Positions 10,214 through 61,947 of a stretch of DNA of 64,000 bases are shown here, piece after piece; positions within the stretch are counted from its first letter, which is position 1; each line of letters opens with the position of its first letter. The position numbers and the translations under genes were made by a program. A model generated the notes under the pieces. That model did no database searches and was not told the origin of the DNA. It saw only the letters and a program-made list of their open reading frames with translations. Location: the NCBI GenBank assembly GCA_964610315.1, contig CAZSVM010000010.1, positions 18,762 through 82,761 of the forward strand, given 5' to 3'. Origin of the DNA: an uncultured Actinomycetota bacterium (GTDB taxonomy: Bacteria > Actinomycetota > Humimicrobiia > Humimicrobiales > Humimicrobiaceae).

Positions 10214-10444
10214 TCAATGGCACCTATAACCGGGCTTTTTATATAAAAGATGCTCTTTTCCAATTATATCAGTTTTGTAAACTTCTTCAGCCCATTTTTC
10301 CTCAGGTACTTCTTCAATAGATACCGAAATAGATTCTTCAGTAGTATCGATGGTATCTTTTAAAGCTTCTACAATTCTGCCAGTCATCTGTTTTTTTTGT
10401 TTTTCTGTTCGGCCTGGCCATAATTTAACTATTACATGAGGCAT
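10214..10444 (-). CDS. 4-oxalocrotonate tautomerase family protein
   Basis: Begins Met-Pro (MPHVIVKLWPGRTEKQKKQ), where Pro1 is the catalytic residue of the tautomerase superfamily. About 76 aa. GGAGGG RBS lies just upstream of this ATG; the track's longer start MEGSK lies inside the RBS. Confidence 0.7.
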   Translation of the reverse strand: MPHVIVKLWPGRTEKQKKQMTGRIVEALKDTIDTTEESISVSIEEVPEEKWAEEVYKTDIIGKEHLLYKKPGYRCH

Positions 10445-10669
10445 TTTACTGCCCTCCATTATTTTTTTAATAATTATAAATGATAAAAGGATATATTAAA
10501 AAGGGGAAAAGTTTTTTATAATTAAAAGTATATCCGGAAAAAATATTTAATCAAAATTCTTATGAATAGCGAGTTATTCCCATAAATAATTTATTATTAT
10601 CATTGATGGTTATATAATTATAATATCAGTATGTTTCTGAGATAATTATTGAAGAGAAAAGGAAGAAAA

Positions 10670-40406: not shown

Positions 40407-40425
40407 TAAAATGGAGGATTTATTT

Positions 40426-41490
40426 ATGAAAAATATAATTAAAGCAGGAATTGTAGGAGGTTCGGGATTTACCGGATTGGAACTGGTAAAAGTATTGAGC
40501 AGACATAAATATGTAAAATTAATTTTTGTTACTTCCAGGACCTATAAAAATTTATCGGTAAGTGAAGTATTTCCGTCATATCAGGATAATGAAGATGACA
40601 AACTTACTTTTATAGAACAGTCTGAAATTAAAAACTTTGAAGATACCGATATAATATTTCTTTGTTTACCTCCTCATAAATCAATGGAATATTTAAAGGG
40701 AATTACCGGTGAGTACCATTTTAAAGTTATAGATGTAGGTTCCGATTTCAGGTTAAAAAATCCGGATGATTATAAATACTGGTATGGCACAGAGCATATT
40801 ATGAAAAATGAGCTTTCCGAATTTGTGTATGGCCTGCCGGAGATAAATAGAGATATGATAAAAAAAGCTAAATATATTGCCAATCCTGGCTGTTATCCTA
40901 CCTCTGTTCTTTTGGGGCTTGCACCGGTTGTAAAGAGCGATATCGATATCCTGGATATATATATTGATTCAAAATCCGGAATAAGCGGAGCCGGAAGGAA
41001 ACTGGTAGATAAGTATCTTTTTACCAGTATAGAAAATAATTTTTATGCTTATTCTGTTACCGGCCACAGGCACACCGGAGAAATAGAACAGGAGATAGAA
41101 AATATTTCCGGAAAAAAATTTAAAATAAGTTTTACTCCGCATCTTGTTCCTTTAACCAGGGGCATATTTACCTCTATATACTGTAAGGTCAAACCTGTCG
41201 CAGAAGAGAGTAACACAGAGGAAAAAATATACGGCTTGCTGGAAGAATTCTGTAAAAATCTTCCCTTTGTCAGGTTTATCGGTACTGAAATACCCCAGCT
41301 TAAGGATGTGGTGGGAACCAACCTGTGTATTATAGGTTATAATTTTGATGAGAGAGCCAATACCCTTAAGATTTTTACTGTGATAGATAATCTTCTGAAG
41401 GGAGCTGCAGGACAGGCCGTTCAGAATATGAATATTATGATGGGTTTCAATGAAAAAGAAGGATTAAATTTTAACGGATTATTTTCTTAA
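40426..41490 (+). CDS. argC: N-acetyl-gamma-glutamyl-phosphate reductase
   Basis: GIVGGSGFTGLEL NAD-binding N-terminus and catalytic Cys context (ANPGCYPTS). GGAGG RBS 8 nt upstream of ATG 40426; the track ATG at 40411 overlaps the RBS. Confidence 0.9.
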   Translation: MKNIIKAGIVGGSGFTGLELVKVLSRHKYVKLIFVTSRTYKNLSVSEVFPSYQDNEDDKLTFIEQSEIKNFEDTDIIFLCLPPHKSMEYLKGITGEYHFKVIDVGSDFRLKNPDDYKYWYGTEHIMKNELSEFVYGLPEINRDMIKKAKYIANPGCYPTSVLLGLAPVVKSDIDILDIYIDSKSGISGAGRKLVDKYLFTSIENNFYAYSVTGHRHTGEIEQEIENISGKKFKISFTPHLVPLTRGIFTSIYCKVKPVAEESNTEEKIYGLLEEFCKNLPFVRFIGTEIPQLKDVVGTNLCIIGYNFDERANTLKIFTVIDNLLKGAAGQAVQNMNIMMGFNEKEGLNFNGLFS

Positions 41491-41516
41491 AAACAGGAAA
41501 GGATTTGGAATTGGAT

Positions 41517-42761
41517 ATGAGTGTAAAACCGGATAAAAAGGATGATTATTTTAAAATTATAAAAAATGGAACTATAACTACCGTTCCCGGATTTTATGCC
41601 TCTGCCTGCCACTGCGGCATTAAAAATTCGATGAAACCGGATATTTGTATAATATATACTCCCGAAGGGAGTACCTGCAGTGGTATTTTTACCACCAATA
41701 AATTTATGGCAGCGCCGGTATTGATTACCAAAGAACAGTTGAAAAAAGAAGGAAATATCAAGGCTGTGGTGATAAACAGCGGAATTGCCAATGCCTGTAC
41801 CGGTAATACAGGATATGTTAATGCAAAAAAAACCATAGATATAGCTGCTCGGTATCTGGGTATCGGTAAGGAGAACGTAATAGTGTCATCAACCGGGATA
41901 ACCGGGAAACAGCTGCCTATGGATAAAATAGAAGAGGGGATAAAAAAATGTTCAGATAACTTAAGTTCTGACGGTGGTCACCGGGCTGCGGAAGCAATAC
42001 TAACTACCGATTTAATTACCAAGGAAATAGCGGTAAGTATTAATGTCAAAAATGGAAAAAATATAATAATAGGAGGTACGGCCAAGGGTTCGGGAATGAT
42101 AGAACCCAATATGGCCACTCTTCTGGTATTTATAACCACTAATGCCGGGATTTCCAGGAGTTTACTTGACAAACTGCTGCATGAGGAAGCGGATACCAGT
42201 TTTAACAGCATAACAATCGATGGATGCCAGAGCACAAATGATATGGTTATAGTTATGGCCAATTCCCATAGTGATATAAATATAAAAAATAAAGAGGATA
42301 AATATTATAAAGAATTTAAAGATGCGTTTTCATATGTAATGAAAGACCTGGCAAAAAAAATAGTCCTGGACGGGGAAGGGGCAACCAAATTGATTAAAAT
42401 AAAGATAATAAATGCAGAGGATATATCCGGTGCAAAAAAATTAGCCTTAAAGGTTGCAAACTCTAACCTTTTCAAATCCGCTATGTTTGGTCAGGATCTT
42501 AACTGGGGAAGAATATATACCGCTCTGGGTTCGTCTGACTGTAATTTTGATCCTGACAAAGTAGGTATATACATTGATGATATATTAATTGCAGAAAATG
42601 GCGAAGGAGTGGATTTCAATAAGGAAGAAACGGGAAAACTTATGAAAAAAAGGGAAATAGAATTTACTATCGATTTGAATTATGGGAATAAAAACTTCGA
42701 GGTTTTAACCGCGGATCTTTCATTTGATTACATTAAAATAAATGCTCTATATCATACATAA
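41517..42761 (+). CDS. argJ: bifunctional glutamate N-acetyltransferase / amino-acid acetyltransferase ArgJ
   Basis: ArgJ self-cleavage region MATLLVFITTNA and overall family similarity. The start could alternatively be TTG 41505. Confidence 0.85.
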   Translation: MSVKPDKKDDYFKIIKNGTITTVPGFYASACHCGIKNSMKPDICIIYTPEGSTCSGIFTTNKFMAAPVLITKEQLKKEGNIKAVVINSGIANACTGNTGYVNAKKTIDIAARYLGIGKENVIVSSTGITGKQLPMDKIEEGIKKCSDNLSSDGGHRAAEAILTTDLITKEIAVSINVKNGKNIIIGGTAKGSGMIEPNMATLLVFITTNAGISRSLLDKLLHEEADTSFNSITIDGCQSTNDMVIVMANSHSDINIKNKEDKYYKEFKDAFSYVMKDLAKKIVLDGEGATKLIKIKIINAEDISGAKKLALKVANSNLFKSAMFGQDLNWGRIYTALGSSDCNFDPDKVGIYIDDILIAENGEGVDFNKEETGKLMKKREIEFTIDLNYGNKNFEVLTADLSFDYIKINALYHT

Positions 42762-42811
42762 ACAAAAGGTATTAAATTTCAAAAGGTAAAGTTATAAGAA
42801 AAGGTAATAAA

Positions 42812-43732
42812 ATGAACTACATTAAAGAAAACAGCATCGAAGAAAATAAGCTTTATATGGGCAAAGTGGAGGTTCTATTAGAATCGCTGCCTTATATAAA
42901 AGAATATTTTGATAAAGTGGTGGTAGTTAAAATAGGCGGAAGCATGATGGAGGATAACAATATACTGGAAAGTGCCCTTGACGACTTAATTCTCATGAAA
43001 TATGTGGGAATAAAAGTGGTACTTATACACGGCGGCGGTAAACAGATTAATGAGATGGCGGTAGAAAGGGGAATAAAACCGCAATTCGTGGATGGATTGA
43101 GAGTAACTAACCGGGATACTATCGAGATAGTAAAAATGGTCCTGGTCGGAGATATAAATACCAAGATTGTATCTTTTCTTAATAAACATGGAAATATAGC
43201 AGTAGGAATATCCGGTAACGACGGCGGTTTTATAAAGTGCAGTAAGAAAAAATATAAGAAGAATGGGAAAAACGTGGATTTAGGTTTCGTAGGGGAGATT
43301 GACAGCGTCAATTCCCAATTTTTAGGCAATATTTTAAAAAACGGTTATATACCGGTTATTGCCACGCTGGGAGCGGATAACAAGGGAAATATATATAATA
43401 TAAATGCGGACACTTGTGCCGCTGAAATTGCAGTCTCTCTTAACGCCAAGAAAATGATCCTGCTTACCGATGTGGACGGAATAATGAAAATAAAAGGCAA
43501 AGAAAAAAAATTAATATCTATATTAACCATGGAACAGTGCATGAAATTAATAAAATCAGGCAAAATAAGTTCAGGAATGATTCCCAAGGTCATAGCTTGT
43601 ATAGATGCATTAAAAAGCGGGGCGGAAAGGACCCATATATTAAACGGGATCAAAAAACATTCCATACTGGTGGAAATATTCACCGATAAAGGCATTGGTA
43701 CCATGATAACCAGCAGTAAGGAGGTAAAATAA
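42812..43732 (+). CDS. argB: acetylglutamate kinase
   Basis: AAK-family motifs VVVKIGGS, LIHGGG, and arginine-sensitive NAGK N-terminal extension. Confidence 0.9.
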   Translation: MNYIKENSIEENKLYMGKVEVLLESLPYIKEYFDKVVVVKIGGSMMEDNNILESALDDLILMKYVGIKVVLIHGGGKQINEMAVERGIKPQFVDGLRVTNRDTIEIVKMVLVGDINTKIVSFLNKHGNIAVGISGNDGGFIKCSKKKYKKNGKNVDLGFVGEIDSVNSQFLGNILKNGYIPVIATLGADNKGNIYNINADTCAAEIAVSLNAKKMILLTDVDGIMKIKGKEKKLISILTMEQCMKLIKSGKISSGMIPKVIACIDALKSGAERTHILNGIKKHSILVEIFTDKGIGTMITSSKEVK

Positions 43733-43734
43733 TT

Positions 43735-44934
43735 ATGGATAAGAATTCGAAAATATTTGATATGGGAAAAAAGTATTTGATGCCTACCTACAACAGGCTG
43801 CCGGTGGTATTTGAAAAAGCTAAAATGCAGTACCTCTGGGATGTTGAAGGAAACAAATACCTCGACTTTATAGCCGGTTATGGATGCCTCAATGTGGGAC
43901 ACAGTAATAAAGAGGTGGTAAGTGCCTTAAAAAACCAAATCAGTAAAATCATACAGTCTTCCAATGTGTATTATAATAAACCACAGGTTATGCTGGCGAA
44001 AAAATTGTGTGAAATTTCCGGATTTGGAGAGAAAATATTTTTTGCTAACAGCGGTACGGAATCTATTGAGGGAGCTATAAAACTGGCCAGGAAATATTCG
44101 ACCGATAATTATGATTCATTACGATATGAAGTTATTACATTTAAGAGAGCTTTTCATGGAAGGACGCTGGGAGCTCTTGCGGCTACAGCTCAATTAGAGA
44201 AGCAAAAATTATTTGAACCCTTGCTTGCCGGATTCAAATATGCGGAACTGAATAATATGGAATCGGTAAAAGAATTGATGAATGAAAATACCTGCGCTGT
44301 TATGCTGGAGCCGGTTCAGGGTGAGGGCGGTGTTTATCCTGCGGATAAAGAATTTATGAAAAACTTAAGGGATATGTGTAGCGAAAAAGATATGTTGCTT
44401 ATTTTAGATGAAATACAAACCGGTTTTGGAAGGACCGGGAGTATGTTTGCCTACCAAAATTACGGTGTTTATCCTGATATACTGGTAGTAGCAAAAAGTT
44501 TGGGGGGCGGAATGCCCATAGGAGCAATAATATCCAGGAATAAAGCAGCAGCAAGTTTTGGACCGGGAACACATGGTTCAACATTTGGAGGAAATGCTGC
44601 CTCATGTGCTGCAGGACTGGCAGTCCTTGATTATATAATAGATAATAAGCTGACTGAAAAATCCAAAAGATTAGGACAGTATTTTACGGAGAAATTGATA
44701 AAAATTAAAAAGAAATATTCTGCAGTAAAAGAAATAAGAGGTATGGGCCTCATGATAGGAATGGAATTCAACAAACCCGTAGCTGAAAATTTGGTTATGG
44801 ATGCTCTTAGTGATAAACTGGTTATTAATAAAGTATCAAGCAATACTTTAAGGTTCCTCCCTCCTCTGATAATAACCAAAAAAAATATAAATACACTTAT
44901 AAAATGGCTGGATAAGAAAGTAAAGGAGATATAA
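43735..44934 (+). CDS. argD: acetylornithine aminotransferase
   Basis: Class III PLP aminotransferase; PLP-Lys context VVAKSLGGGMPIGA. GGAGG RBS. Confidence 0.9.
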   Translation: MDKNSKIFDMGKKYLMPTYNRLPVVFEKAKMQYLWDVEGNKYLDFIAGYGCLNVGHSNKEVVSALKNQISKIIQSSNVYYNKPQVMLAKKLCEISGFGEKIFFANSGTESIEGAIKLARKYSTDNYDSLRYEVITFKRAFHGRTLGALAATAQLEKQKLFEPLLAGFKYAELNNMESVKELMNENTCAVMLEPVQGEGGVYPADKEFMKNLRDMCSEKDMLLILDEIQTGFGRTGSMFAYQNYGVYPDILVVAKSLGGGMPIGAIISRNKAAASFGPGTHGSTFGGNAASCAAGLAVLDYIIDNKLTEKSKRLGQYFTEKLIKIKKKYSAVKEIRGMGLMIGMEFNKPVAENLVMDALSDKLVINKVSSNTLRFLPPLIITKKNINTLIKWLDKKVKEI

Positions 44935-44935
44935 A

Positions 44936-45844
44936 GTGAAAAAAGATTTTTTAACCTTGAAAGATTATTCCAAAAAAGAAATTGAATATATAATTGATCT
45001 TTCAGGAAAAATTAAGAAAGATAAAGATAAGTACAGTGATATTTTGAAAGGAAAGAATATAGCTCTGCTTTTCGATAAACACTCTACCAGGACCAGGTTA
45101 TCCTTTGAGGTCGGAATAAATCAACTGGGCGGCCATGCTTTAATCCTGGATTCAAAGAGCCTGCACTTAAGCCGGGGTGAATCTTATAAAGATACGGCAA
45201 AGATTTTTTCGTTATATGTTGAGGGTGTAATTATAAGGACTTTCAAACAGGAAACCATAGAAATTTTTGCGGAATATGGAACCATACCGGTGATAAACGG
45301 ACTTACAGACACTTATCATCCCTGCCAGGTGCTGGCCGATATTTTAACCCTGAAAGAAATGGGAATGCTGGATAAAAAACTTAAATTCGTTTATATGGGA
45401 GACAGTAATAATGTAACCAACAGTTTAATTATAGGGTTTTCAAAACTGGGGATAGATATAACTGTGGGATGCCCCCCAAAATATTCTCCCGGGAGTGAGA
45501 TACTGGAATATGCCAAAAGCCAGAAAGAGGGCAGTAAAATCAACATAATACATGACCCGGTTGAAGCAGTAAGCGGTGCAGATGTAGTTTATACCGATGT
45601 ATGGTTGAGCATGGGTCAGGAAACGGATAATTATAAGTTAAAGGAACTTGAAAAATATCAGGTAAACTTTAATTTGTTAAAACAGGCAAAGAAAGAAGTA
45701 AAAATAATGCACTGTCTTCCGGCTCACAGGGGAGAGGAAATTACATCCGAGGTTCTGGATAGCAAAAACTCAATTGTTCTGAATCAGGCGGTCAATCGCC
45801 TTTATGCACAAAAGGGGCTGCTGACTTATTTGTACGGAAATTAA
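44936..45844 (+). CDS. argF: ornithine carbamoyltransferase
   Basis: STRTR carbamoyl-phosphate motif and HCLPA (OTC-type, not the HPLP of ATCase). GTG start with AAAGGAG RBS at ideal spacing. Confidence 0.9.
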   Translation: MKKDFLTLKDYSKKEIEYIIDLSGKIKKDKDKYSDILKGKNIALLFDKHSTRTRLSFEVGINQLGGHALILDSKSLHLSRGESYKDTAKIFSLYVEGVIIRTFKQETIEIFAEYGTIPVINGLTDTYHPCQVLADILTLKEMGMLDKKLKFVYMGDSNNVTNSLIIGFSKLGIDITVGCPPKYSPGSEILEYAKSQKEGSKINIIHDPVEAVSGADVVYTDVWLSMGQETDNYKLKELEKYQVNFNLLKQAKKEVKIMHCLPAHRGEEITSEVLDSKNSIVLNQAVNRLYAQKGLLTYLYGN

Positions 45845-45911
45845 TTATAGGGAAGTTAAGTTTATGCAGTAAAAAAATAATTGAAATAAAAATCAGAGGT
45901 AAAATAATAAA

Positions 45912-46370
45912 ATGAGTAGATCCGAGAGACTTAGAACCATAAAAAAATTAATAGAAAATAAAAAAATTTCTTCTCAGGAAGAATTATCCAGTGAGCTGAT
46001 CAAAAGGGGATACCACGTAACCCAGTCCACTATTTCAAGAGACCTTAATTATTTGAGAGTAGTAAAAATAAGAAATTATCGGCAGGAGGAATTTTATGCT
46101 GCCCGGGTGGGGACATTTGAGGGTAAAATTTTTGATCCTGAGAAGTTTAAATCCAAATTCAGAGAAAGTGTGGTGTCCGTAAAAAAAACTAATAATATAA
46201 TTGTAGTAAAAACATTCCCCGGGGAGGCACAGGGAACAGCTGCCGTGATTGACGGCATGAACTTTGTGGAAATACTGGGTACAGTGGCCGGTGATGATAC
46301 CATAATTTGCGTTACGGACAGCTCCGATAATGCGGTTAAAATATTTGAGATGATGCAAAAACAGTTCTAG
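45912..46370 (+). CDS. argR: arginine repressor
   Basis: N-terminal winged helix (SSQEELSSELIKRGYHVTQSTISRDLNYL) and C-terminal oligomerisation/Arg-binding domain (GTVAGDDTI). Embedded in the arg operon. Confidence 0.9.
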   Translation: MSRSERLRTIKKLIENKKISSQEELSSELIKRGYHVTQSTISRDLNYLRVVKIRNYRQEEFYAARVGTFEGKIFDPEKFKSKFRESVVSVKKTNNIIVVKTFPGEAQGTAAVIDGMNFVEILGTVAGDDTIICVTDSSDNAVKIFEMMQKQF

Positions 46371-46429
46371 GTAGATTATAAAATATAAAAAAAGATAATT
46401 TGACTGAATAATTAACGAAAGGATTAAAA

Positions 46430-47629
46430 ATGACTGATAAAGTAGTTTTGGCATATTCGGGGGGACTTGATACTTCCATTTCCATAAAATGGATTAAAGA
46501 TAAGTATAATATGGAAGTAATAGCAGCTCTTATAGATTGCGGTCAGCCTGATGATTTAAGGAAAGCTTATCAGAGAGCACTGGAGATAGGAGCTTCCAAA
46601 TCTATATTAATTGATGCCAAAAATGAATTTATAAATAGTTTTATTCTTCCTTCAGTAAAAGCAAATCTGAAATACGAAAAAAAATATCCGCTGGCTACAG
46701 CACTGGCAAGACCTTTAATAGCAAAGAAACTAGTGGAAACAGCAAAAAAAGAAGGGGCAAAAGCAGTAGCTCATGGTTGTACCGCAAAAGGTAATGATCA
46801 GGTACGTTTTGATGTGGGAATAAGAAGCCTGGCACCGGATCTAAAAATAATTGCCCCTCAAAGGGAGTGGGGTATATCAAGAGAGGAGGCAATTAAATAT
46901 GCGGCGGAGCATAATATTAAAACACTGGTAACCAAAAAAAGCCCCTATAGTATCGATGAAAACTTATGGGGCAGAAGCATTGAATGTGGGGTGCTTGAAG
47001 ATCCCTGGAATGAACCTCCGGAGGATATATATCAGTGGACGAAAATTACCAGGGGTAGGGATGAATTCGGATATCTGGAAATAGGATTTCAGGAGGGAAG
47101 TCCTGTTTCACTAAATGGTAAAAATATGACTGCGGACATGATTATTAAAAAACTTAATAAGGAAGCGGGTTCTTATGGAATTGGGAGAATCGATATGGTG
47201 GAAAATAGACTGATCGGGATAAAATCAAGGGAAATTTATGAATCTCCGGCAGCGGAAATCATAATTGAAGCCCACCGGCAACTTGAATCATTGATACTGG
47301 ATAGGGAACTGGTTCATTATAAATATATTTTGGAAGAAAAATTAGCGGAAATGGTATATTATGGACTATGGTTTACCCCACTGCGAAGCTGTTTGTGTTC
47401 CTTCATGGACCAAAGTCAGATTTTTGTGACTGGAACGGTAAAAATTAAACTTGAGTACAAGAGTTTTAAAGTAGTGGGAAGGAAATCAAATTATTCTTTG
47501 TATGATATAAATCTGGCTACTTATGATAAAGCAGATAAATTTGACCACAGACATTCGGAAAGTTTCATTAAATTATGGGGTTATCCTTATGAAATATTAG
47601 GAAAAAAAGGAAGGATCGATGGAAAATAA
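46430..47629 (+). CDS. argG: argininosuccinate synthase
   Basis: PP-loop AYSGGLDTS and downstream synthetase motifs. Confidence 0.9.
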   Translation: MTDKVVLAYSGGLDTSISIKWIKDKYNMEVIAALIDCGQPDDLRKAYQRALEIGASKSILIDAKNEFINSFILPSVKANLKYEKKYPLATALARPLIAKKLVETAKKEGAKAVAHGCTAKGNDQVRFDVGIRSLAPDLKIIAPQREWGISREEAIKYAAEHNIKTLVTKKSPYSIDENLWGRSIECGVLEDPWNEPPEDIYQWTKITRGRDEFGYLEIGFQEGSPVSLNGKNMTADMIIKKLNKEAGSYGIGRIDMVENRLIGIKSREIYESPAAEIIIEAHRQLESLILDRELVHYKYILEEKLAEMVYYGLWFTPLRSCLCSFMDQSQIFVTGTVKIKLEYKSFKVVGRKSNYSLYDINLATYDKADKFDHRHSESFIKLWGYPYEILGKKGRIDGK

Positions 47630-49070
47630 AATATGGAAGGGCAGGATCGGTAAAAATATGAATAAAGAGGTGGAAAATTTTACCTTTTCTATAAAATCGG
47701 ATAAAAAACTTTATCTTTACGATATCAACGGCACTGCGGCTTATGCCATTGGACTTCTGAAAATTGGAATAATAACGGAAAGTGAACTCAAAAAAATCCT
47801 ATATGGATTAAAAAAAGTGAAGAAAGACATAGAAGAAGGTAAAATTGACGCTCATCTGTATGAGGATATTCACAGCCTGATTGAAAATGAATTAGGCATG
47901 ACTATTGGAAATGCTGCCATGAAAATCCATACCGGAAGGAGTAGAAACGATCAGATAGTTCTGGATGAAAAACTGTTTATAAAAGATGCGGTGATAGATG
48001 CACTGGGAAATATTATAGCTTTGCAGAAAAGTATTTTAAAAGTGGCACAAAATACATTGGATATAATTATTCCTGCTTATACTCATATGCAAAGAGCCCA
48101 GCCGGTATTACTATCACACTACTTAATGTCCTATTTTTATAAATTTGATCGGGATACCGAAAGTTTTTTCAATAGTTTTGAATCCAGTGATTCTCTACCT
48201 CTGGGAGCAGCAGCCTGTACCGGCAGCGGATATGAACTGGACAGGAAACTATTAAAAAAACTTCTTAAGTTTAAAAGACTTGACCCTAACAGTATGGATA
48301 CGGCAGGAAACAGGGATTTTATAATAGATTTTTTATTTTCATGCACCAAAATAATGATGCATTTGAGCAGATTTTGCGAGGATCTTATCTTATATAACAG
48401 CAGTGAGTTTTCATTTATTGAAATAGAGGAATCCTTTTGCACCGGCAGCAGTATTATGCCCCAGAAAAAAAATCCGGATATCCTGGAGCTAATAAGGGGG
48501 AAAAGCTCCCTGGTAATGGGAAATCTTCTGCAATTGATGATACTGCTTAAAGGGCTGCCGTCAACCTATAACCGGGACCTGCAGGAAGATAAAAAAATTT
48601 TATTCGGTGCCTGTAAAGAAACCATATCCTGTATTGATATATTTTCCAAATTAATGGAGAAAATAAAATTCAACCGGTTAAAAATTAAAGATTCCCTAAA
48701 AGAGGGTTTTCTGGAAGCCACCGATATGGCTGATTATCTGGTAAAGAAAGGAGAGAGTTTCAGGAAAGCTCATAATATCGTAGGTAAAATCATAAGTTTA
48801 TGTATAAATAAAAAAATATATTTCAGGGACATAAAACTGGAAGAGCTTAAAAAATACTCGTCTTATTTTGAAAGCGATGTATATAGCTATACCGATATTT
48901 GCTCCTGTATTTCCAATAAAAGCATTGATTGTGGTACCGAAAAGGGGCAGGTGATTTCCAATATCAACTCTGCAAAGAAAAAGATAAAAGATGTTCAGCA
49001 GAAGTTAAAAAATCTTACCAAAAGAATTCCTTCTTTTGAACAGCTGATAAGTTATACGGACAACCTGTAA
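47619..49070 (+). CDS. argH: argininosuccinate lyase
   Basis: Fumarate-lyase family signature GSSIMPQKKNP. Overlaps the argG end by 11 nt (translational coupling). Confidence 0.9.
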   Translation: MENKIWKGRIGKNMNKEVENFTFSIKSDKKLYLYDINGTAAYAIGLLKIGIITESELKKILYGLKKVKKDIEEGKIDAHLYEDIHSLIENELGMTIGNAAMKIHTGRSRNDQIVLDEKLFIKDAVIDALGNIIALQKSILKVAQNTLDIIIPAYTHMQRAQPVLLSHYLMSYFYKFDRDTESFFNSFESSDSLPLGAAACTGSGYELDRKLLKKLLKFKRLDPNSMDTAGNRDFIIDFLFSCTKIMMHLSRFCEDLILYNSSEFSFIEIEESFCTGSSIMPQKKNPDILELIRGKSSLVMGNLLQLMILLKGLPSTYNRDLQEDKKILFGACKETISCIDIFSKLMEKIKFNRLKIKDSLKEGFLEATDMADYLVKKGESFRKAHNIVGKIISLCINKKIYFRDIKLEELKKYSSYFESDVYSYTDICSCISNKSIDCGTEKGQVISNINSAKKKIKDVQQKLKNLTKRIPSFEQLISYTDNL

Positions 49071-55711: not shown

Positions 55712-56053
55712 ATGCATGAATATTCCATAACCTGCTCTATTGTTGAAATATTAAATGATTTAATAAAGAAACATAATATAAAAAAATTAAAAAAGGTAAA
55801 TTTTGAATTGGGCCCACTTGCTCATCTGGAACCCCAATCGATAGAGTTTTATTATAATTTTCTTACAGAAGATAATCCTATCTTGAAAAATGCAAATCTT
55901 AATTTTAAGAAAAATAAAGTAAAGATAGAGTGCAGATCCTGCGGTAAAACCTTCCAGTCAAAAACTTTTGTTTCCAGGTGTATTTATTGTTCGGGAGATA
56001 AAATAAGAATAGTGGAATCCGATGATATCAAAATAGTTTCTATAGAAACATAG
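55712..56053 (+). CDS. hypA: hydrogenase maturation nickel metallochaperone HypA-like zinc-ribbon protein
   Basis: MHEYSITCSIVE N-terminal Ni-binding motif (MHE) and two CxxC pairs (CRSCG...CIYCSG) at the HypA spacing. 113 aa. Confidence 0.65.
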   Translation: MHEYSITCSIVEILNDLIKKHNIKKLKKVNFELGPLAHLEPQSIEFYYNFLTEDNPILKNANLNFKKNKVKIECRSCGKTFQSKTFVSRCIYCSGDKIRIVESDDIKIVSIET

Positions 56054-56475
56054 TATTATTTAATTAATAAGTATAAATAGAATTTGAGTGATGAACGAAG
56101 CAGGTTAATTTATATTGACTTAAACCAGTGCTATAGTTAAAATAAAAACAATTAATGTTAATAATAAAAGTTGCTTGATTTATAAATTAATTTGCGCAGG
56201 TAAGGTAATATTTTAGGTCGTATTATTAGCGATAGAAATACATTTTAATGTAAAAAAGATGATTTCAGAATTTGGCTATAGATGTTATTTTAATTATTTC
56301 AGTTGCTAATGATAATTTTATTAAAACTATAAAAAAGGGAGTTAATTTAACACTCTGTTTTATATAAAAAAATTAGAATATTTACTTTTTAAAAGCGGGA
56401 AGCTGCGTTTTATAATGTAAATATTGGATTTTAATAATTATTGAGGATATTTAGTCAGTGCGAATTAATTTATAA

Positions 56476-56500
56476 GTCGAGTGGTTAACTCGGCTTTTTT
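56476..56500 (+). terminator. terminator-like hairpin (GTCGAG-TGGTTAA-CTCGGC) plus T6ATTT, about 25 nt upstream of the rny RBS
   Basis: Stem with one G-U pair and a T-run, read from sequence. Closes a 470-nt ORF-free AT-rich region. Confidence 0.4.
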
Positions 56501-56522
56501 ATTTGGAAGGAAGGTTTGCAAA

Positions 56523-58064
56523 ATGGATTTATTAATAAGAATAGCGGCGCTGGGAATTGCATTCATAGTGGGCGGCTTGATGGGTTTTTTCTTTAGAAAA
56601 TATATCATAGATTCAAAGTTAAGTTCAGCAGAACAGAAAGCAAATTCATTACTCAGCAATGCTAAAAAGGAAGCAGCTACATTAAAAAAAGAAATTATGC
56701 TGGAAGGTAAAGAAGAAATTCAAAATTTGAAAACCCATGCCGAAGAAGAAATAAAGAAACAAAAATTCGAGCTTAAAAAAAGAGAGGATAGATTGTTATC
56801 CAGGGAGGATTCCATAGAGAAAAAGACTCATTATGTAGAAAAGAAAGAGCAGGAAGTAAACCAGAGAAAAGAGGAACTTGAAGGTAAAAATAAAAAATTG
56901 GACGAGGTATTAGATAAGGAAATACTGAGGCTGGAAGCTATTGCCGAACTGACCAAGGAAGAAGCAAAAGCAATTCTGATTAAGAAAATAGAAGATGAAG
57001 CAAAATATGAATCCGTAAAAGAATTAAAAAATATCGAAGCAAAGTTAAAAGAGGAAGCGGATACCATGGCAAAAAAAGTAATATCTCAAGCCATACAGAG
57101 ATGCGCACTTGATCATGTAAGTGAATCTACAGTATCGGTAGTAAATTTACCCAATGATGAGATGAAGGGAAGAATAATAGGAAGAGAGGGAAGGAATATT
57201 AGAGTTTTTGAGAATCTTACCGGTATAAATATAATCGTTGATGACACTCCTGAAGCAGTGATTCTGTCATCTTTTGATCCGGTGAGAAGGGAAATTGCCA
57301 GAGTAACTCTGGAAAATCTGATAATGGATGGAAGAATTCATCCGGCTAAAATCGAAGAAATGTATGAAAAAGCCAGCAAAATTATCAATAACGAGATAAA
57401 AGTAGAAGGCGAGCAGGCTGTTTTTGATGCAGGGATATCGGAATTGAATCCGGGAATAGTAAAAGTACTGGGAAGGCTAAAATACAGAACCAGTTATGGA
57501 CAGAATGTTCTCCTTCATTCCAAGGAAGTTGCTTATATTGCCGGGATAATTGCATCCGAACTGGGTATGAATGTTAAAAAGGCCAAAAGGGCCGGCCTGC
57601 TTCATGATATAGGAAAGGCTCTAACTCATGATATAGAAGGGTCACATGCAATAATCGGAGCGGAACTGGCTAAAAGATTGAATGAAGAAGAAGAAGTATG
57701 CCATGCCATTAAAGCACATCACAACGAAATAGAAGCAAGCACGGTACTGGATGTAATTATACAGGCGGCAGATCAGATATCAGGCGGAAGGCCCGGCGCA
57801 CGAAGAGAAACCCTGGAAAGCTATGTAAAAAGGCTGGAAAGTCTGGAGAAAATTGCCACAGAATTTAAGGGTATAGAGAAGGCATACGCTATACAGGCCG
57901 GAAGAGAAATAAGGGTAATGGTTAAACCAGAAGAGGTTAACGAGGATATGTCCATTGTTCTGGCCAGGGAGATAGCAAGAGAAATAGAGAAAGAAATGGA
58001 GTATCCGGGACAGATTAAAGTAACGGTCATAAGAGAAAGCAGAGCAGTCGAGTATGCAAAATAG
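56523..58064 (+). CDS. rny: ribonuclease Y
   Basis: N-terminal TM helix ([22 protein letters not shown]), coiled-coil, KH domain ([12 protein letters not shown]) and HD domain (LLHDIGKA...H...D). Start at ATG 56523 with GGAAGGAAGG RBS. Confidence 0.9.
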
Positions 58065-59199
58065 TTCTGATTTAAAAAAATTTCTGTCTGAGCTTAATAT
58101 AAAAGATTCGCTGAATATCGAAGAAGATCTGGGAGATGGGTACGTCAGGCTGAAAATTTCCGAAGCCGAAAGGAGACAGGCTCTTCAGGATATAAACTGT
58201 GTCGAAGATATAATAGTGGAGTTGTTAAGAAACAGCAGGGATGCAGGCAGCAAGAATATTTTTATCGGAACTAAAAAAATTGAAGATAAAAGAAGAAAAA
58301 TATATTTTGTGGATGATGGCTGCGGAATTCCTCCCAATCTTCAAAATCTTATTTTTCAGTCAAGGGTAACCTCCAAGCTGGACAATGGAATAAGGGATTC
58401 TTACGGATTTCATGGTCGGGGAATGGCTCTGTTTTCAATCAAGTTAAATGTAGATGAGATAAAGATAGTTTTTTCCGACCGGTTAAAAGGAGCCTCATTT
58501 TATGTAGATATAGATCTCCTGGAAATCACCGAAAAAAAGGATCAATCGGCAATACCGCAGATAATTAAAATGGATGGTGATTTGAGTATAATTGGCGGTG
58601 TAAACAATATAATAAAAACTATAATAGAGTTCCAGCTTCAGAACAGCGATATTAACTTCTTTTACGGGAGCCCAACCCAGATACTGGCTACTATGAGGGA
58701 GATTGTGAAAAAGAATGAGAATTACAATAATTATCCAAAATTTGACCAATGGGATAAGTTAATTGATTTTGTGCAAAAGAATAATATAAAAGTAACCAAA
58801 ATTCCGGTTCTTACCGATAACTATAATCTGATGGAAGTTGTTTCCAGAAATATATTTAATATGGATATATCTCAGAGAGGCATTCAAAGGATTATATATA
58901 ATGAGATCAAGGAACTGGAGCCATTAAAACTTACTGCAGACGGTAACCTGGAAGAACAAATAGAAAGCCGGCATGAAAATAAACCGGATAAAAAAAGGGA
59001 GAGTAAATTGACTCTTTATGATGAATCAAAACTGGCCGGCAGGTTTAAAGATGAAGAGATAAGATGTATAATTGATACCGTAGAAAACAAGATTAAAGAA
59101 CTGGGAAACAAATATTTCATTACTACTGGTAAAAATATAGAATGTAAGAAGGCAAATAATATTATAAAATTATCAATTGAATTGAAGCAAAAAGAATAA
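58054..59199 (+). CDS. GHL-family ATPase resembling the N-terminal ATPase domain of MutL (no C-terminal dimerisation/endonuclease domain), translationally coupled to rny
   Basis: Bergerat-fold motifs in MutL-like form: [16 protein letters not shown] (ELVENSLDAGA), DDGCGI (DNGCGI), [12 protein letters not shown] (GFRGEALASI). 381 aa. Start overlaps the rny stop by 11 nt. Confidence 0.55.
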
Positions 59200-59224: not shown

Positions 59225-59497
59225 ATGAACGAAAATATCAAATTGCTCAAAGTATCTTCAAAATCAAAACCAAATTCAGTAGCAGGAGCTATAGCGGGAA
59301 TGATAAGAAGTAATAACAGAGTTAAAATACAGACCATAGGTGCGGGGGCTCTCAATCAGGCTATAAAAGGAATTGCCATAGCCAGAGGATTTATAGCTCC
59401 CACCGGTCAGGAATTAATATGCATACCCTATTTTAAAGATATAGAGGTTAATGGAGAAGTAAAAACTGCCATCGTGCTTACCATTGAATCCAAATAA
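59225..59497 (+). CDS. spoVS: stage V sporulation protein S homologue
   Basis: LKVSSKSKPNSVAGAIAGMIR...IQTIGAGALNQAIKGIAIARGFIAPTGQELICIPYF is near-identical in pattern to SpoVS. Confidence 0.85.
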   Translation: MNENIKLLKVSSKSKPNSVAGAIAGMIRSNNRVKIQTIGAGALNQAIKGIAIARGFIAPTGQELICIPYFKDIEVNGEVKTAIVLTIESK

Positions 59498-59580: not shown

Positions 59581-60888
59581 ATGAAAGCGTATATTGAAAC
59601 ATTCGGCTGTCAGATGAATGAGAATGATTCGGAAAGAATCATATATCTTCTTGAGACTTCCGGTTATAAAAGAATTTATGATATGGAGGATTCCGACCTT
59701 ATTGTGCTTAACACCTGTACAGTGAGAGAAAAAGCTAAAAACAGACTATACGGACATATTGGAAATTTAAAAAAATTAAAAGAAAAAAATAAAAATATTT
59801 TAATCTGCATCGGTGGTTGTGCCGCACAGGATTTAAAGGAAAAGATAACAAACGATTTTCCTTTTGTGGATATTGTTTTTGGAACCCATAATATCCCGGA
59901 ACTTCCGGATCTGATAGGCAGAAGAACTTTAACTGGCAGGAGTATATGTTCGATCAAAAATAATGGTTTTGATCCCGATATCTTTAAGGTCAAAAGAGAA
60001 TATAACTTCAAAGCATTCGTTCCCATAACCATAGGCTGTGATAATTACTGCACGTACTGTATAGTCCCCATGGTAAGAGGAAATGAAAAATCTATAGAGC
60101 CGGAAATTATTGTAAAAAATGTTAAGGAGCTGGCAGCACAGGGAGTATTGGAAATAACACTGCTGGGGCAGAATGTAAACTCTTATGGAAAAAATCTTGA
60201 TCGATTCTGTAATTTTCCTCAGCTGCTGGGAAAAGTATCACTCATAGAAGGTTTGAAAAGAATAAGATTTATGACTTCTCATCCCAAGGATTTTTCCGAA
60301 AATCTTATCGATATTATTGAAAACAGAGAAAATATTGTAAAACATATCCACCTGCCCCTACAGGCCGGCTCTAATAAAGTTTTAAGGAGAATGAACCGGA
60401 ACTACACCAGGGAGGATTATCTGGATATTATAAAAAATATAAGAAAAAAAATTCCCCAATGTTCTATTACCACCGATATGATAGTAGGTTTTCCGGGAGA
60501 AGAAAGAAAGGATTTTTTGGAAACGCTGGATATGGTAAAAAGAGTCAGATTCAGCAGGGCTTTTACATTTATTTATTCACCTCGCAAGGGAACCGCTGCG
60601 GCAAAAATGAAAGATTATATACCGCCGGGTGAAAAGAGGAAATGGTTCAGAGAACTGCTGGAGACTCAAAATGGAATTTCTTATGAGGAGAATAAAAAGT
60701 TTGTGGACAGGAAATTCGAAGTATTGGTTGAAGGAAAGAGTACCAAAGATAACAGTATGCTGGAAGGAAGAATGGAAAACAACATTATTGTAAATTTTAA
60801 GGGCAGCAGCAAACTTATCGGAAAAATAATACCGGTTAAAGTAACCGGGGCTCGAACATTCTATCTTATGGGAGAACCAGTAGATTAA
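59581..60888 (+). CDS. miaB: tRNA (N6-isopentenyl adenosine(37)-C2)-methylthiotransferase
   Basis: UPF0004 N-domain (YIETFGCQMNENDSE), radical SAM CDNYCTYC, and TRAM domain. Confidence 0.9.
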   Translation: MKAYIETFGCQMNENDSERIIYLLETSGYKRIYDMEDSDLIVLNTCTVREKAKNRLYGHIGNLKKLKEKNKNILICIGGCAAQDLKEKITNDFPFVDIVFGTHNIPELPDLIGRRTLTGRSICSIKNNGFDPDIFKVKREYNFKAFVPITIGCDNYCTYCIVPMVRGNEKSIEPEIIVKNVKELAAQGVLEITLLGQNVNSYGKNLDRFCNFPQLLGKVSLIEGLKRIRFMTSHPKDFSENLIDIIENRENIVKHIHLPLQAGSNKVLRRMNRNYTREDYLDIIKNIRKKIPQCSITTDMIVGFPGEERKDFLETLDMVKRVRFSRAFTFIYSPRKGTAAAKMKDYIPPGEKRKWFRELLETQNGISYEENKKFVDRKFEVLVEGKSTKDNSMLEGRMENNIIVNFKGSSKLIGKIIPVKVTGARTFYLMGEPVD

Positions 60889-60891
60889 AAG

Positions 60892-61947
60892 ATGTCTGGA
60901 AGTATGAATAAAATGAGGAATAAAGAACTATCGGGAATTAAAAACCTTAAAAAATCATTAAGGAACCAAAACGTAGATTTGGATAAACTGTCCCGGGATC
61001 TGATAAATTCTAGAAAAGTTATGGTTGTATGCGGACCTACCAGCAGCGGTAAGAGCAAAATAGGGGTAATTATAGCAAAATTACTGAACACTGATATTAT
61101 ATCCATGGATTCCATGCAAGTTTACAGGGGAATGAATATAGGAACCGATAAGTATGATACCGGGAGTTATGATATAAAACAATATATGATCGATATCTTT
61201 GATCCGGACCATAATTTGAGTGTGGTAGAGTTTAAGGATATATGTGATGGAATAATAAGAGAAAAATTTTTTTCTTTAAATAAAATTCCCTTACTGGTAG
61301 GTGGTTCCGGCCTTTATATAAGAAGTGTAGTAAACGGCATCGATAATGTGCCCCAGGAGAGTAAGAAAATCAGGGAAGAATTAAAAGGGGGAATTGAAAG
61401 GGAAGGTATAAAAAAATATTATTTAAAATTAAAAATGGTCGATAAGGAGTATGCACAAAAAATAAGTGAAAATGACCGGAGGAGAATAATAAGGGCACTG
61501 GAAGTATATCAATTAACCGGTCTGCCTTTTTCCACCTTCCAAAATACCTGGAAGGATAAAAAACAAGCCTATGACGCAATACTGGTGGGCATTAAAATGG
61601 AGAGGAACAAGCTTTACCAGTGTGTTGAAAAGAGGGTGGAGAAGATGTTCAAAAACGGGCTGGTTAATGAAGTAAAAACATTAACCAGCAAAGGATTTAA
61701 AAATTGCCATAGTATAACCCAGGCAGTAGGCTACAGAGAAGTATCGAAGTATCTGGATGGAGAGATAACTCTTGAAAAATGTATAGATGAAGTTAAAAAA
61801 AATACCAGAAGGCTGGCAAAAAAACAGATAACCTGGTTCAACTCCGAACCGAAAATTAATTGGATAAGAGCAGATAATTATGATAACATTTTTAATTTAA
61901 CCGGTGATATTTTTAAAAAAATTGTTATGGACAGGGCAGATGAATAA
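60892..61947 (+). CDS. miaA: tRNA dimethylallyltransferase
   Basis: P-loop VVCGPTSSGKS, DSMQVYRGMNIGT, and downstream IPP-transferase motifs. About 40 aa lie N-terminal to the P-loop, so the true start may be ATG 60904 or 60913. Confidence 0.85.
   Translation: MSGSMNKMRNKELSGIKNLKKSLRNQNVDLDKLSRDLINSRKVMVVCGPTSSGKSKIGVIIAKLLNTDIISMDSMQVYRGMNIGTDKYDTGSYDIKQYMIDIFDPDHNLSVVEFKDICDGIIREKFFSLNKIPLLVGGSGLYIRSVVNGIDNVPQESKKIREELKGGIEREGIKKYYLKLKMVDKEYAQKISENDRRRIIRALEVYQLTGLPFSTFQNTWKDKKQAYDAILVGIKMERNKLYQCVEKRVEKMFKNGLVNEVKTLTSKGFKNCHSITQAVGYREVSKYLDGEITLEKCIDEVKKNTRRLAKKQITWFNSEPKINWIRADNYDNIFNLTGDIFKKIVMDRADE

What the first reader, a model, noticed from the sequence alone, without database searches (positions are those of the whole stretch)
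58054..59199. MutL-N-terminal-like GHL ATPase translationally coupled to rny, occupying the ymdB slot of the rny-ymdB-spoVS arrangement
In Bacillus subtilis the gene order is rny(ymdA)-ymdB-spoVS. Here rny and the spoVS homologue are conserved, but the middle gene is a 381-aa Bergerat-fold ATPase instead of the YmdB phosphodiesterase. Its motifs are of the MutL type ([29 protein letters not shown]) rather than histidine-kinase type, and it overlaps the rny stop by 11 nt. It lacks any MutL C-terminal dimerisation/endonuclease domain and instead has a ~230-aa uncharacterised tail. I do not recognise a stand-alone MutL-NTD-like ATPase co-transcribed with RNase Y as a described arrangement. It could be an RNA-degradosome accessory or regulatory ATPase, or a MORC-like protein.
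Basis: partly seen in the sequence, partly recalled or inferred. Interest (0 to 1): 0.6.

Follow-up and report, generated by a model that had tools for sequence, protein, structure and literature searches.

The report
MutL-like ATPase partnered with RNase Y
This is a real, strongly conserved but never-studied gene for an ATP-binding protein related to the front end of the DNA-repair protein MutL. In a group of anaerobic Actinomycetota it always sits directly behind the RNA-cutting enzyme RNase Y, so it is probably a new helper of RNA processing (or, less likely, a hidden repair factor).

Summary
Window 58054-59199(+) is a 381-aa ORF that overlaps the rny stop codon by 11 nt and is followed by spoVS and miaB.

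- **Family.** It is a compact family: 312 hits among 1.84 billion representatives. All named members come from Actinomycetota, mainly Humimicrobiia (the window's lineage), Geothermincolia and Coriobacteriia (including Umbribacter vaginalis and MAG-derived Gordonibacter and Adlercreutzia). They are annotated only as "ATP-binding protein".
- **Context.** rny lies immediately upstream in every locus where this could be checked (about 75). The 11-nt overlap is kept in 57 of 71 loci.

Most likely this is an ATP-driven dimeric switch that works with RNase Y, taking the place of YmdB in the rny operon. That function is inferred, not shown. A cryptic DNA-repair role remains possible, because Coriobacteriia are reported to lack MutS-MutL and NucS. 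I rate it a new variant of a known kind, of moderate to high interest.

The parts
56523..58064 (+). rny (RNase Y). The ORF is open from GTG 56481. The likely start is ATG 56523, which is preceded by a GGAAGGAAGG Shine-Dalgarno-like run.
   Evidence: TIGR03319 712 bits (cutoff 454); RNase_Y_N, KH and HD domains; sequence read.
58054..59199 (+). The MutL-like GHL-type ATP-binding protein, 381 aa (the finding). Its ATG lies inside the last codons of rny (...GAG TAT GCA AAA TAG), giving an 11-nt overlap.
   Evidence: Pfam HATPase_c_3 and HATPase_c above gathering score; overlap kept in 57 of 71 related loci.
58093..58194 (+). N-terminal conserved segment, residues 14-47 ([34 protein letters not shown]). 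It is near-invariant across the family, but residues 15-33 are predicted with low confidence in the monomer. It may be a dimerisation strap or a partner-binding segment (inferred).
   Evidence: Invariant columns E23, G27, G29, V31, L33, E37-A43 and D46 in the 58-sequence alignment A2; pLDDT <50 for residues 15-33.
58195..58533 (+). GHKL/Bergerat ATP-binding core, residues ~48-160.
- Motif I: E56-x3-N60-x2-D63.
- Motif II: D87-x-G89-x-G91.
- MutL-type R104-V-T-S-K-L109.
- Lid motif: G118-x-H120-G-R-G-M-A125.
- Motif IV: G146.
58531..58728 (+). Post-core alpha/beta segment, residues 160-225, with the family-specific invariant motif E160-[KR]-x-D163-Q164-S165-x2-P168, plus G182, N185, E192-F193 and G205. 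Its role is unknown. It may complete the ATPase domain or contact the nucleotide (inferred).
   Evidence: Invariant columns; secondary structure in the models.
58729..58929 (+). Helical domain, residues 226-292. It contains a helix-loop-helix carrying invariant S273, R275 and R279 ([10 protein letters not shown] here; LGLxISERTAHRIL in Coriobacteriia). It looks HTH-like, but this is not established.
58930..59028 (+). Variable, charged, low-confidence linker, residues 293-325.
   Evidence: pLDDT ~38 for residues 301-323; length and sequence vary among homologues.
59029..59199 (+). C-terminal small alpha/beta module, residues 326-381: a long helix followed by a beta-meander, with invariant Y354. 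It is a candidate dimerisation module (inferred). Coordinates include the stop codon.
59225..59497 (+). spoVS homologue, 90 aa (Alba-superfamily small nucleic-acid-binding protein), 25 nt downstream of the ATPase gene.
   Evidence: PF04232 2e-34; Alba fold per PMC2732212 and PMC11621453; downstream of the ATPase gene in all related loci that extend far enough, except Umbribacter.
59581..61947 (+). miaB (59581-60888) and miaA (60892-61947), tRNA-modification genes that complete the conserved block.
   Evidence: Pfam UPF0004, Radical_SAM and TRAM for miaB. miaA is named from its position in the conserved block, where the orthologous genes in related loci carry the IPPT domain; the window's own ORF was not scanned.

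Best explanation
The gene encodes a member of a previously uncharacterised protein family restricted to Actinomycetota.

**Architecture.**
- A MutL/GyrB-type (GHL-type) ATP-binding domain with an intact catalytic Glu, Mg-binding Asn, adenine-binding Asp and glycine-rich lid.
- A family-specific alpha/beta segment.
- A small helical, possibly HTH-like, domain.
- A flexible charged linker.
- A small C-terminal alpha/beta module.

**Context.** It is the fixed downstream operon partner of rny and is translated by coupling to rny.

**Most likely mode of action (inferred).** It works as an ATP-driven dimeric switch or clamp, like other GHKL proteins. The C-terminal module would hold the dimer together. 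The conserved N-terminal strap and the ATPase domains would close on ATP binding. It would act together with membrane-bound RNase Y, and perhaps with the Alba-like SpoVS, to bind RNA or to gate RNase Y activity. On this view it is a non-orthologous replacement for YmdB in the rny operon.

**Shown versus inferred.**
- Shown: the gene, its fold class, its conservation and its linkage to rny.
- Inferred: ATP hydrolysis, dimerisation, nucleic-acid binding and any effect on RNase Y.
For: **1. GHL-type ATP site.**
- Pfam HATPase_c_3 and HATPase_c pass their cutoffs.
- The best NCBIfam hit is MutL, 4.7e-9.
- Profile against PDB sequences: MutL 1.2e-7, MLH1 4.7e-5, best kinase 3.5e-4.
- hhalign to E. 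coli MutL gives 93.9% with 37% identity.
- The catalytic and ligand-binding residues are invariant in 58 sequences sharing as little as 29% identity.

**2. Linkage to rny.**
- rny is immediately upstream in all 71 GTDB species loci that extend far enough.
- The same holds in five further Coriobacteriia loci.
- Those loci come from three named classes. Protein identity between the ATPases falls to ~35% and genome GC content ranges from low to high.
- The other neighbours change between lineages: tyrS-hypA against recA-recX upstream; spoVS, pgm or miaB downstream.

**3. Translational coupling.**
- The identical 11-nt overlap is kept in 57 of 71 loci.
- Seven more loci have gaps of 1-9 nt.
- rny has a GGAAGGAAGG ribosome-binding site, while this gene has none.
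- No terminator-like site lies between rny, this gene and spoVS.

**4. Position and neighbours.**
- The slot corresponds to ymdB, which forms an operon with rny in B. subtilis (PMC8266666).
- No ymdB-like gene occurs within 6-8 kb in 84 loci or in the window.
- The other neighbours are RNA-related: the Alba-fold SpoVS, miaB and miaA, and in Coriobacteriia a PHP phosphoesterase.

**5. MutL-like layout.** The order is ATPase, disordered linker, small C-terminal module.
Against: - No direct evidence of any interaction with RNase Y or RNA.
- rny sits in a very old synteny block (cinA-recA-recX-rny...miaB-miaA), where adjacency need not mean shared function.
- The closest relatives of the ATP domain act on DNA, not RNA.
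- The HTH-like segment and the dimerisation module are not supported by any significant match.
- The S5 transducer, which couples ATP hydrolysis to action in GHL enzymes, is absent, so the catalytic cycle may differ.
- The role of YmdB with respect to RNase Y is itself unclear, so 'replacement' is a positional argument only.
Confidence: 0.42

Rival explanations
1. Cryptic DNA-repair factor. The protein would be a truncated, remodelled descendant of MutL that still acts on DNA (mismatch or recombination control) in lineages that lost canonical MutS-MutL. Its position next to rny would be inherited synteny within the recA...miaB-(mutS-mutL)-miaA neighbourhood.
For: - MutL-family NTDs are the best sequence and fold matches.
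- It carries the MutL-type R-V-T-S-K-L motif.
- All analysed Coriobacteriia are reported to lack both NucS and MutS-MutL (PMC5290159).
- Authors who found no MutS, MutL or MutH in Eggerthella suggested that highly divergent homologues may exist (PMC12631127).
- In Coriobacteriia the gene lies two genes from recA-recX.
- No canonical mutL lies in the window or in 84 related loci.
- mutL-miaA adjacency exists in E. coli.
Against: - No MutS-like partner, no endonuclease or dimerisation CTD, and no transducer domain.
- In Humimicrobiia and Geothermincolia recA is not nearby, yet the rny linkage persists.
- The invariant neighbour is rny, not a repair gene.
- Whether Humimicrobiia lack MutSL or NucS could not be checked.
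- The gene sits before spoVS, not in the mutL slot between miaB and miaA.
Confidence: 0.15
2. Signalling protein of the kinase or anti-sigma type. A GHKL domain would be used to phosphorylate or sequester a partner (for example SpoVS, RNase Y or a regulator), as in histidine kinases, SpoIIAB or RsbW.
For: - HATPase_c passes its cutoff.
- hhalign to EnvZ gives 86.6%.
- Some database entries name homologues 'sensor histidine kinase'.
Against: - There is no DHp or H-box. No histidine is invariant upstream of the ATP domain; position 45 is Q in Humimicrobiia and H in Coriobacteriia.
- The lid motif GxHGRGMA and the TSK motif are of GyrB/MutL type, not the kinase G2 box.
- No response regulator or sigma factor lies in any of the neighbourhoods examined.
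Confidence: 0.1
3. Unrelated housekeeping ATPase. The gene would have some other cellular role (for example chaperone-like or chromosome-associated). It would stay behind rny only because the block is rarely rearranged and the overlapping start makes separation costly.
For: - The surrounding block is an ancient synteny in which neighbours have diverse functions.
- The ATG of the overlap arises automatically from the conserved RNase Y C-terminus ...E-Y-A-K*.
Against: - Other neighbours on both sides were replaced during the same evolutionary span, while rny never was.
- No family member was seen away from rny.
Confidence: 0.2

Closest known systems
MutL / MLH1 / PMS N-terminal ATPase domain (TIGR00585; PDB 1b63, 9n2k, 4p7a, 5x9y)
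   Same: - The Bergerat-fold ATP site has the same motif set: ExxxNxxDA, DxGxG, [RH]xTSK[IL] and a glycine-rich lid.
- The overall layout is the same: ATPase, flexible linker, small C-terminal module.
   Different: - Only ~80-170 residues align.
- No S5-fold transducer (DNA_mis_repair) domain.
- No MutL_C dimerisation or endonuclease domain.
- The NCBIfam score is 35.7 against a cutoff of 180.
- About 380 aa instead of ~600.
- Encoded behind rny, with no mutS nearby.
- The lid reads GxHGRG, which is closer to the GyrB motif LHGVG.
GyrB / ParE / Topo II and Topo VI-B ATPase domains
   Different: - No transducer with a QTK-type loop.
- No Toprim domain and no A-subunit partner.
- hhalign to E. 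coli GyrB gives only 17%.
MORC / paraMORC ATPases
   Same: The HATPase_c_3-type domain. MORC4 is the best single-sequence PDB hit (E 0.0047).
   Different: - No S5 domain, coiled coil or CW domain.
- Housekeeping rather than defence-island context, and no PADLOC family.
YmdB (B. subtilis; second gene of the rny operon)
   Same: It occupies the same position, directly behind rny and ahead of spoVS, and is probably co-transcribed with rny.
   Different: The fold is unrelated: YmdB is a calcineurin-like metallophosphoesterase, while this protein is a GHKL ATP-binding protein. No sequence similarity was found. The equivalence is positional only.
RNase Y accessory proteins RicA, RicF and RicT (the Y-complex) of B. 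subtilis
   Same: Under the favoured hypothesis it would likewise be a protein cofactor that modulates RNase Y (PMC10470536, listed).
   Different: There is no homology. The Ric proteins are Fe-S/flavin-binding adaptors encoded elsewhere in the genome. This protein is an ATPase encoded in the rny operon.

Membership tests
GHKL (Bergerat-fold) ATP-binding superfamily | Motifs I (ExxxNxxD), II (DxGxG), III (glycine-rich lid) and IV, and a Pfam GHKL model above its gathering score | tested here: met
   HATPase_c_3 34.1 bits (cutoff 25) and HATPase_c 29.6 (cutoff 26.4). E56, N60, D63, D87, G89, G91, G118, G121, G123 and G146 are invariant in 58 sequences.
GHKL (Bergerat-fold) ATP-binding superfamily | Bergerat alpha/beta sandwich fold | tested here: met
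   [not shown]
GHL subgroup (GyrB-Hsp90-MutL, also MORC and Topo VI-B) | S5-domain-2-like transducer domain after the ATPase, supplying a Lys/Arg/Gln to the gamma-phosphate | tested here: not met
   [not shown]
MutL / MLH / PMS (TIGR00585, PF13589 + PF01119 + PF08676) | N-terminal ATP domain with the MutL-type [RH]xTSK motif and a best match to MutL | tested here: met
   [not shown]
MutL / MLH / PMS (TIGR00585, PF13589 + PF01119 + PF08676) | Whole-protein score above the curated family cutoff | tested here: not met
   TIGR00585 scores 35.7 bits against a cutoff of 180. Only profile positions 21-101 of 555 are matched.
MutL / MLH / PMS (TIGR00585, PF13589 + PF01119 + PF08676) | C-terminal dimerisation domain (MutL_C), with the DQHAx2Ex4E endonuclease motif in MutH-less bacteria | tested here: not met
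   No Pfam hit in residues 165-381 at E up to 10. No structural match. The only DQ-containing motif is DQS(A/S) at residues 163-166, directly after the ATP core, and it lacks the His and Glu residues.
MutL / MLH / PMS (TIGR00585, PF13589 + PF01119 + PF08676) | Works with a MutS encoded in the same genome | not testable with these tools
   No mutS or mutL in the 64-kb window among the ORFs scanned (ORFs between 30281 and 38730 were not scanned), and no mutL in 84 related loci. Whole genomes could not be searched. The literature reports that Coriobacteriia lack MutS-MutL.
Histidine kinase / SpoIIAB-type GHKL kinases | DHp or H-box with a conserved phospho-accepting His (or a partner-binding surface for a sigma or anti-anti-sigma factor), and kinase-type N, G1, F and G2 boxes | tested here: not met
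   [not shown]
MORC / paraMORC | GHKL plus S5 module with coiled-coil or other effector domains; prokaryotic members occur in restriction-modification or defence contexts | tested here: not met
   [not shown]
YmdB family (PF13277, TIGR00282) | Calcineurin-like metallophosphoesterase fold and motifs | tested here: not met
   No Pfam or NCBIfam hit of that kind. A tblastn search with a B. subtilis YmdB sequence finds nothing in the window or in 84 loci; that probe sequence was written from memory.

The most novel reading that the evidence does not exclude
The protein would be the surviving, remodelled MutL component of an undescribed mismatch or replication-error repair route. This route would operate in Actinomycetota classes such as Coriobacteriia that have neither MutS-MutL nor NucS. 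The ATPase would couple to a nuclease other than the MutL CTD, conceivably RNase Y or another HD or PHP nuclease in the block acting at RNA-DNA hybrids or ribonucleotide-marked nascent strands.
Probability: 0.1. Interest if true: 0.85.

Novelty: new variant of a known kind. Interest (0 to 1): 0.6.

Why it matters
**For RNase Y biology.** RNase Y is the main mRNA-decay endonuclease of Gram-positive bacteria. Its known helpers, YmdB and the Ric/Y-complex, were all defined in Bacillus. This finding points to an ATP-using partner encoded in the rny operon of a different phylum. No such partner has been described for RNase Y (no paper found).

**For GHKL proteins.** It would extend the GHKL 'ATP-driven clamp' principle to RNA decay.

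**For DNA repair.** The family is the only MutL-related protein so far noticed in Coriobacteriia. These gut and vaginal bacteria are reported to lack every known mismatch-repair system. The family therefore gives a concrete gene to test on that open question.

**Practicality.** Members occur in the cultured isolate Umbribacter vaginalis and in genera with cultured species (Gordonibacter, Adlercreutzia; those hits are from MAGs), so experiments are feasible.

Tried and rejected
- **AlphaFold-database fold search (afdb50).** Not available on the machine, so only PDB libraries were used.
- **HTH hypothesis for residues ~247-281.**
  - Pfam scans of 28 family segments gave only insignificant HTH hits, best E 0.022-0.2.
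  - A PDB profile search gave nothing meaningful.
  - I keep it as a suggestion only.
- **Defence-system reading (MORC-like).** No PADLOC family. The single weak Cmr5 hit is in the window protein only. Rejected.
- **Apparent longer or fused family members.** P0280 (509 aa), with internally repeated segments, looks like an assembly artefact. P0266 (517 aa), which begins with the RNase Y C-terminus, looks like a merged gene call. Neither is a real fusion.
- **ymdB or canonical mutL near the gene.** None in 84 loci or in the window.
- **Literature searches.** Searches for rny + SpoVS + ymdB, RNase Y + Coriobacteriia, and RNase Y + GHKL found no description of the arrangement.
- **Rfam.** No known RNA element in the rny leader or elsewhere in the block.
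Full report
**1. The observation**

The ORF exists as described. It runs 58054-59199 on the + strand, starts with ATG and encodes 381 aa. The raw sequence reads ...GTC GAG TAT GCA AAA TAG. The ATG at 58054 therefore lies inside the last codons of the upstream gene, whose stop codon ends at 58064, giving an 11-nt overlap.

- The upstream gene is RNase Y (TIGR03319, 712 bits against a cutoff of 454; RNase_Y_N, KH and HD domains).
- The gene 25 nt downstream is a SpoVS homologue (PF04232, 2e-34).
- miaB, miaA and dapF follow.
- The quoted motifs are present at residues 56-66, 87-92 and 118-129.
- The GC content of the gene (33.8%) matches the window (35.5%), so it is not a recent insertion.

**2. 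Which organism and which family**

The exact protein and many homologues of 70-86% identity are in public collections. Where named, they are labelled Actinomycetota, Candidatus Hydromicrobium or Humimicrobiaceae. NCBI taxonomy places Ca. Hydromicrobium in the class Candidatus Humimicrobiia.

A profile built from 16 homologues was searched against 1.84 billion representative proteins. It found only 312 proteins at E <= 1e-3, and 154 at E <= 1e-30. This is a small, sharply delimited family, not a generic kinase-like hit.

Nearly all full-length listed members are 330-430 aa. They share:
- the ELLRN[SA]RDA, DDGxG[IV] and GxHGRGMA motifs;
- the N-terminal motif vEEDLGxG[YF]VRL...EAERRQA..DI, seen in the alignments.

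Searches seeded with distant members show the family is widespread in Coriobacteriia. It is present in the isolate Umbribacter vaginalis and in MAG-derived or uncultured Gordonibacter, Adlercreutzia and Eggerthellaceae entries. Umbribacter is placed in the Eggerthellaceae. It also occurs in Candidatus Geothermincola (L071).

Every name given by a source is 'ATP-binding protein', 'hypothetical protein' or, occasionally, 'sensor histidine kinase'. A few MAG labels point outside Actinomycetota (Eubacteriales, Syntrophaceae, Betaproteobacteria). Their sequences resemble the actinobacterial members, so these labels are probably binning or labelling errors.

**3. What the N-terminal half is**

Both Pfam GHKL models pass their curated cutoffs. 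The comparisons agree on where it belongs:

| Comparison | MutL family | Best histidine kinase | Others |
|---|---|---|---|
| NCBIfam | MutL 4.7e-9 (N-terminal 80 residues only) | RstB 1.7e-5 | |
| Family profile vs PDB sequences | Aquifex MutL 1.2e-7; MLH1 4.7e-5 | AdeS 3.5e-4 | MORC4 0.014 |
| hhalign vs E. coli proteins | MutL 93.9% (37% identity, 76 columns) | EnvZ 86.6% | HtpG 45.9%; GyrB 17.3% |
| Foldseek | MutL first (4e-5) | close behind | Topo VI-B close behind |

The AF2 model has a mean pLDDT of 78.6, and above 84 over most of the ATP-binding core.

At the residue level, the following are invariant across 58 sequences sharing as little as 29% identity:
- the general base E56;
- the Mg ligand N60;
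- D63;
- the adenine-binding D87;
- G89 and G91;
- the lid residues G118, G121 and G123;
- G146.

The stretch R104-V-T-S-K-L109 aligns with the MutL motif 'HATSKI'. The lid motif GxHGRG aligns with GyrB 'GLHGVG'.

My conclusion is that the ATP-binding domain is of the GyrB/MutL type and closest to MutL. It is very likely competent to bind ATP, and probably to hydrolyse it. The margin over histidine kinases is clear in fold comparison but only moderate in profile comparison.

**4. What it is not**

It is not a MutL.
- The curated MutL model scores 35.7 bits against a cutoff of 180.
- There is no DNA_mis_repair (S5 transducer) domain and no MutL_C domain.
- No endonuclease motif is present.

It has no H-box. 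No histidine is invariant upstream of the ATP domain; position 45 is Q in Humimicrobiia and H in Coriobacteriia. It matches no PADLOC defence family.

**5. Anatomy of the rest**

The models and the alignments define six parts.
- **Residues ~14-47:** a near-invariant N-terminal segment. Residues 15-33 are predicted with low confidence in the monomer. This pattern is typical of a strap that orders on dimerisation or on partner binding (inference).
- **Residues ~48-160:** the ATP-binding core.
- **Residues 160-225:** an alpha/beta segment carrying a family-specific invariant motif, E160-[KR]-x-D163-Q164-S165-x2-P168, plus G182, N185, E192-F193 and G205.
- **Residues 293-325:** a variable, charged, disordered linker.
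- **Residues 326-381:** a C-terminal helix plus beta-meander with invariant Y354.

The order ATPase, linker, small C-terminal module mirrors the layout of MutL in miniature.

**6. Genomic context**

In 75 species-representative genomes recovered with two family-specific peptide patterns, the order rny, this gene, spoVS, miaB, miaA, dapF is conserved wherever the contig extends. rny lies immediately upstream in all 71 loci with upstream sequence.

The 11-nt overlap is kept in 57 of those 71 loci. Five more have gaps of 6-9 nt, and eight of the remaining nine have gaps of 65-526 nt.

The overlapping ATG comes for free from the conserved RNase Y C-terminus ...E-Y-A-K*. Even so, the conserved N-terminal protein sequence shows it is the start that is used.

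The flanks differ between lineages:

| Lineage | Gene order |
|---|---|
| Coriobacteriales MAGs | rimO-pgsA-cinA-recA-recX-rny-X-pgm-spoVS-PHP-miaB-miaA |
| Adlercreutzia | rny-X-spoVS-miaB-miaA-hflX, with a 1-nt gap between rny and X |
| Umbribacter vaginalis | rny-X-miaB, with no spoVS between |
| Humimicrobiia (the window) | tyrS-hypA upstream of rny |

X is the ATPase gene. rny is the only neighbour that is present in every locus.

Further context:
- rny has a GGAAGGAAGG ribosome-binding site before its likely start at 56523. The ATPase gene has none, which fits translational coupling.
- No terminator-like site separates rny, the ATPase gene and spoVS.
- In B. subtilis, rny forms an operon with ymdB (PMC8266666).
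- No YmdB-like gene was found within 6-8 kb of the ATPase gene in 84 loci, or in the window. The probe sequence was recalled from memory, so this negative result is soft.
- SpoVS belongs to the Alba superfamily of nucleic-acid-binding proteins (PMC2732212 and PMC11621453).

**7. Most likely mechanism**

I favour, at a confidence of about 0.4, an ATP-driven dimeric switch or clamp that acts with RNase Y.
- The C-terminal module would hold two chains together.
- ATP binding would close the N-terminal domains through the conserved strap, as in MutL, GyrB, Hsp90 and MORC. That behaviour is established for those families and only inferred here.
- The helical domain and the DQS segment would bind RNA or RNase Y.
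- Coupled translation would deliver the protein in step with RNase Y at the membrane.

This would make it a non-orthologous occupant of the YmdB position. The gene, the fold class, the conservation and the linkage to rny are shown. Everything about activity and partners is inferred.

**8. Rivals**

- **Cryptic DNA-repair role (0.15).**
  - For: MutL is the nearest relative.
  - For: all analysed Coriobacteriia are reported to lack both NucS and MutS-MutL (PMC5290159).
  - For: authors who found no MutS, MutL or MutH in Eggerthella proposed that divergent homologues might exist (PMC12631127).
  - Against: there is no MutS partner.
  - Against: there is no nuclease domain.
  - Against: rny, not recA, is the invariant neighbour.
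- **Kinase or anti-sigma-like signalling protein (0.1).** See section 4.
- **Unrelated ATPase kept by synteny (0.2).**

**9. Novelty and verdict**

No curated family (Pfam 2025, NCBIfam 2026, PADLOC) and no paper in the searchable library describes this protein or the arrangement.

It is a new family, with a new architecture, within a well-known superfamily, and its genomic coupling is new. I rate it a new variant of a known kind, with interest 0.6. It gives RNase Y biology a concrete ATP-dependent candidate partner outside the Firmicutes. It also gives the unsolved question of mismatch repair in Coriobacteriia a testable gene.

**Limits**
- Whole genomes could not be searched for mutS, mutL, nucS or ymdB.
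- No multimer predictions were possible.
- The AlphaFold-database fold libraries were unavailable.

Noticed in passing
window 56474-56506 (+), in the 470-nt gap between hypA (ends 56053) and the likely rny start (56523): A terminator-like hairpin (AAGTCGAGTGGTTAACTCGGCTT followed by TTTTATTTGG) sits about 15 nt upstream of the rny ribosome-binding site. Several promoter-like sites lie at 56109-56438. It could be a leader or attenuator for rny, or a terminator for an upstream transcript. No Rfam family matches it.
   Followed up: partly
window 55712-56053 (+): A stand-alone hypA (hydrogenase/urease nickel metallochaperone, PF01155 5e-27) lies between tyrS and rny, with no hypB or other hyp genes beside it. 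It sits between tyrS and rny in many Humimicrobiia loci.
   Followed up: no
L076 9372-10169; L077/L078 9254-10066; L072 ~3400-4216; L073 7396-8325: In Coriobacteriia-type loci a PHP-domain phosphoesterase follows spoVS. By my recollection this resembles the TrpH/RNase AM type, which was not tested. In some loci a phosphoglucomutase-family gene is inserted between the ATPase gene and spoVS. The PHP gene is absent from the window.
   Followed up: no
L079 (Umbribacter vaginalis) 6389-10686: Here the ATPase gene (426 aa, with a longer linker) is followed directly by miaB, with no spoVS in between. SpoVS is therefore not an obligatory neighbour, while rny is.
   Followed up: partly
proteins P0266 (517 aa) and P0280 (509 aa): P0266 begins with the RNase Y C-terminus ([13 protein letters not shown]...) joined to the ATPase through an out-of-frame-looking stretch. 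P0280 contains internally repeated segments. Both look like gene-call or assembly artefacts rather than natural fusions.
   Followed up: partly
window 15492-17006 (+): A PAS-GGDEF-HD(HD_5) protein, combining a cyclic-di-GMP cyclase domain with an HD-GYP-type phosphodiesterase domain. It is unrelated to the finding.
   Followed up: no
window 40411-49070 (+): A complete arginine-biosynthesis cluster with an embedded arginine repressor. By Pfam domain the order is semialdehyde dehydrogenase (argC-like), ArgJ, amino-acid kinase (argB-like), class-III aminotransferase (argD-like), OTCase (argF-like), Arg repressor, argininosuccinate synthase and argininosuccinate lyase. It is ordinary and recorded for context only.
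   Followed up: no
window 61904-61947: The dapF ORF as listed (GTG at 61904) overlaps miaA by 44 nt. The real start is probably further downstream.
   Followed up: no
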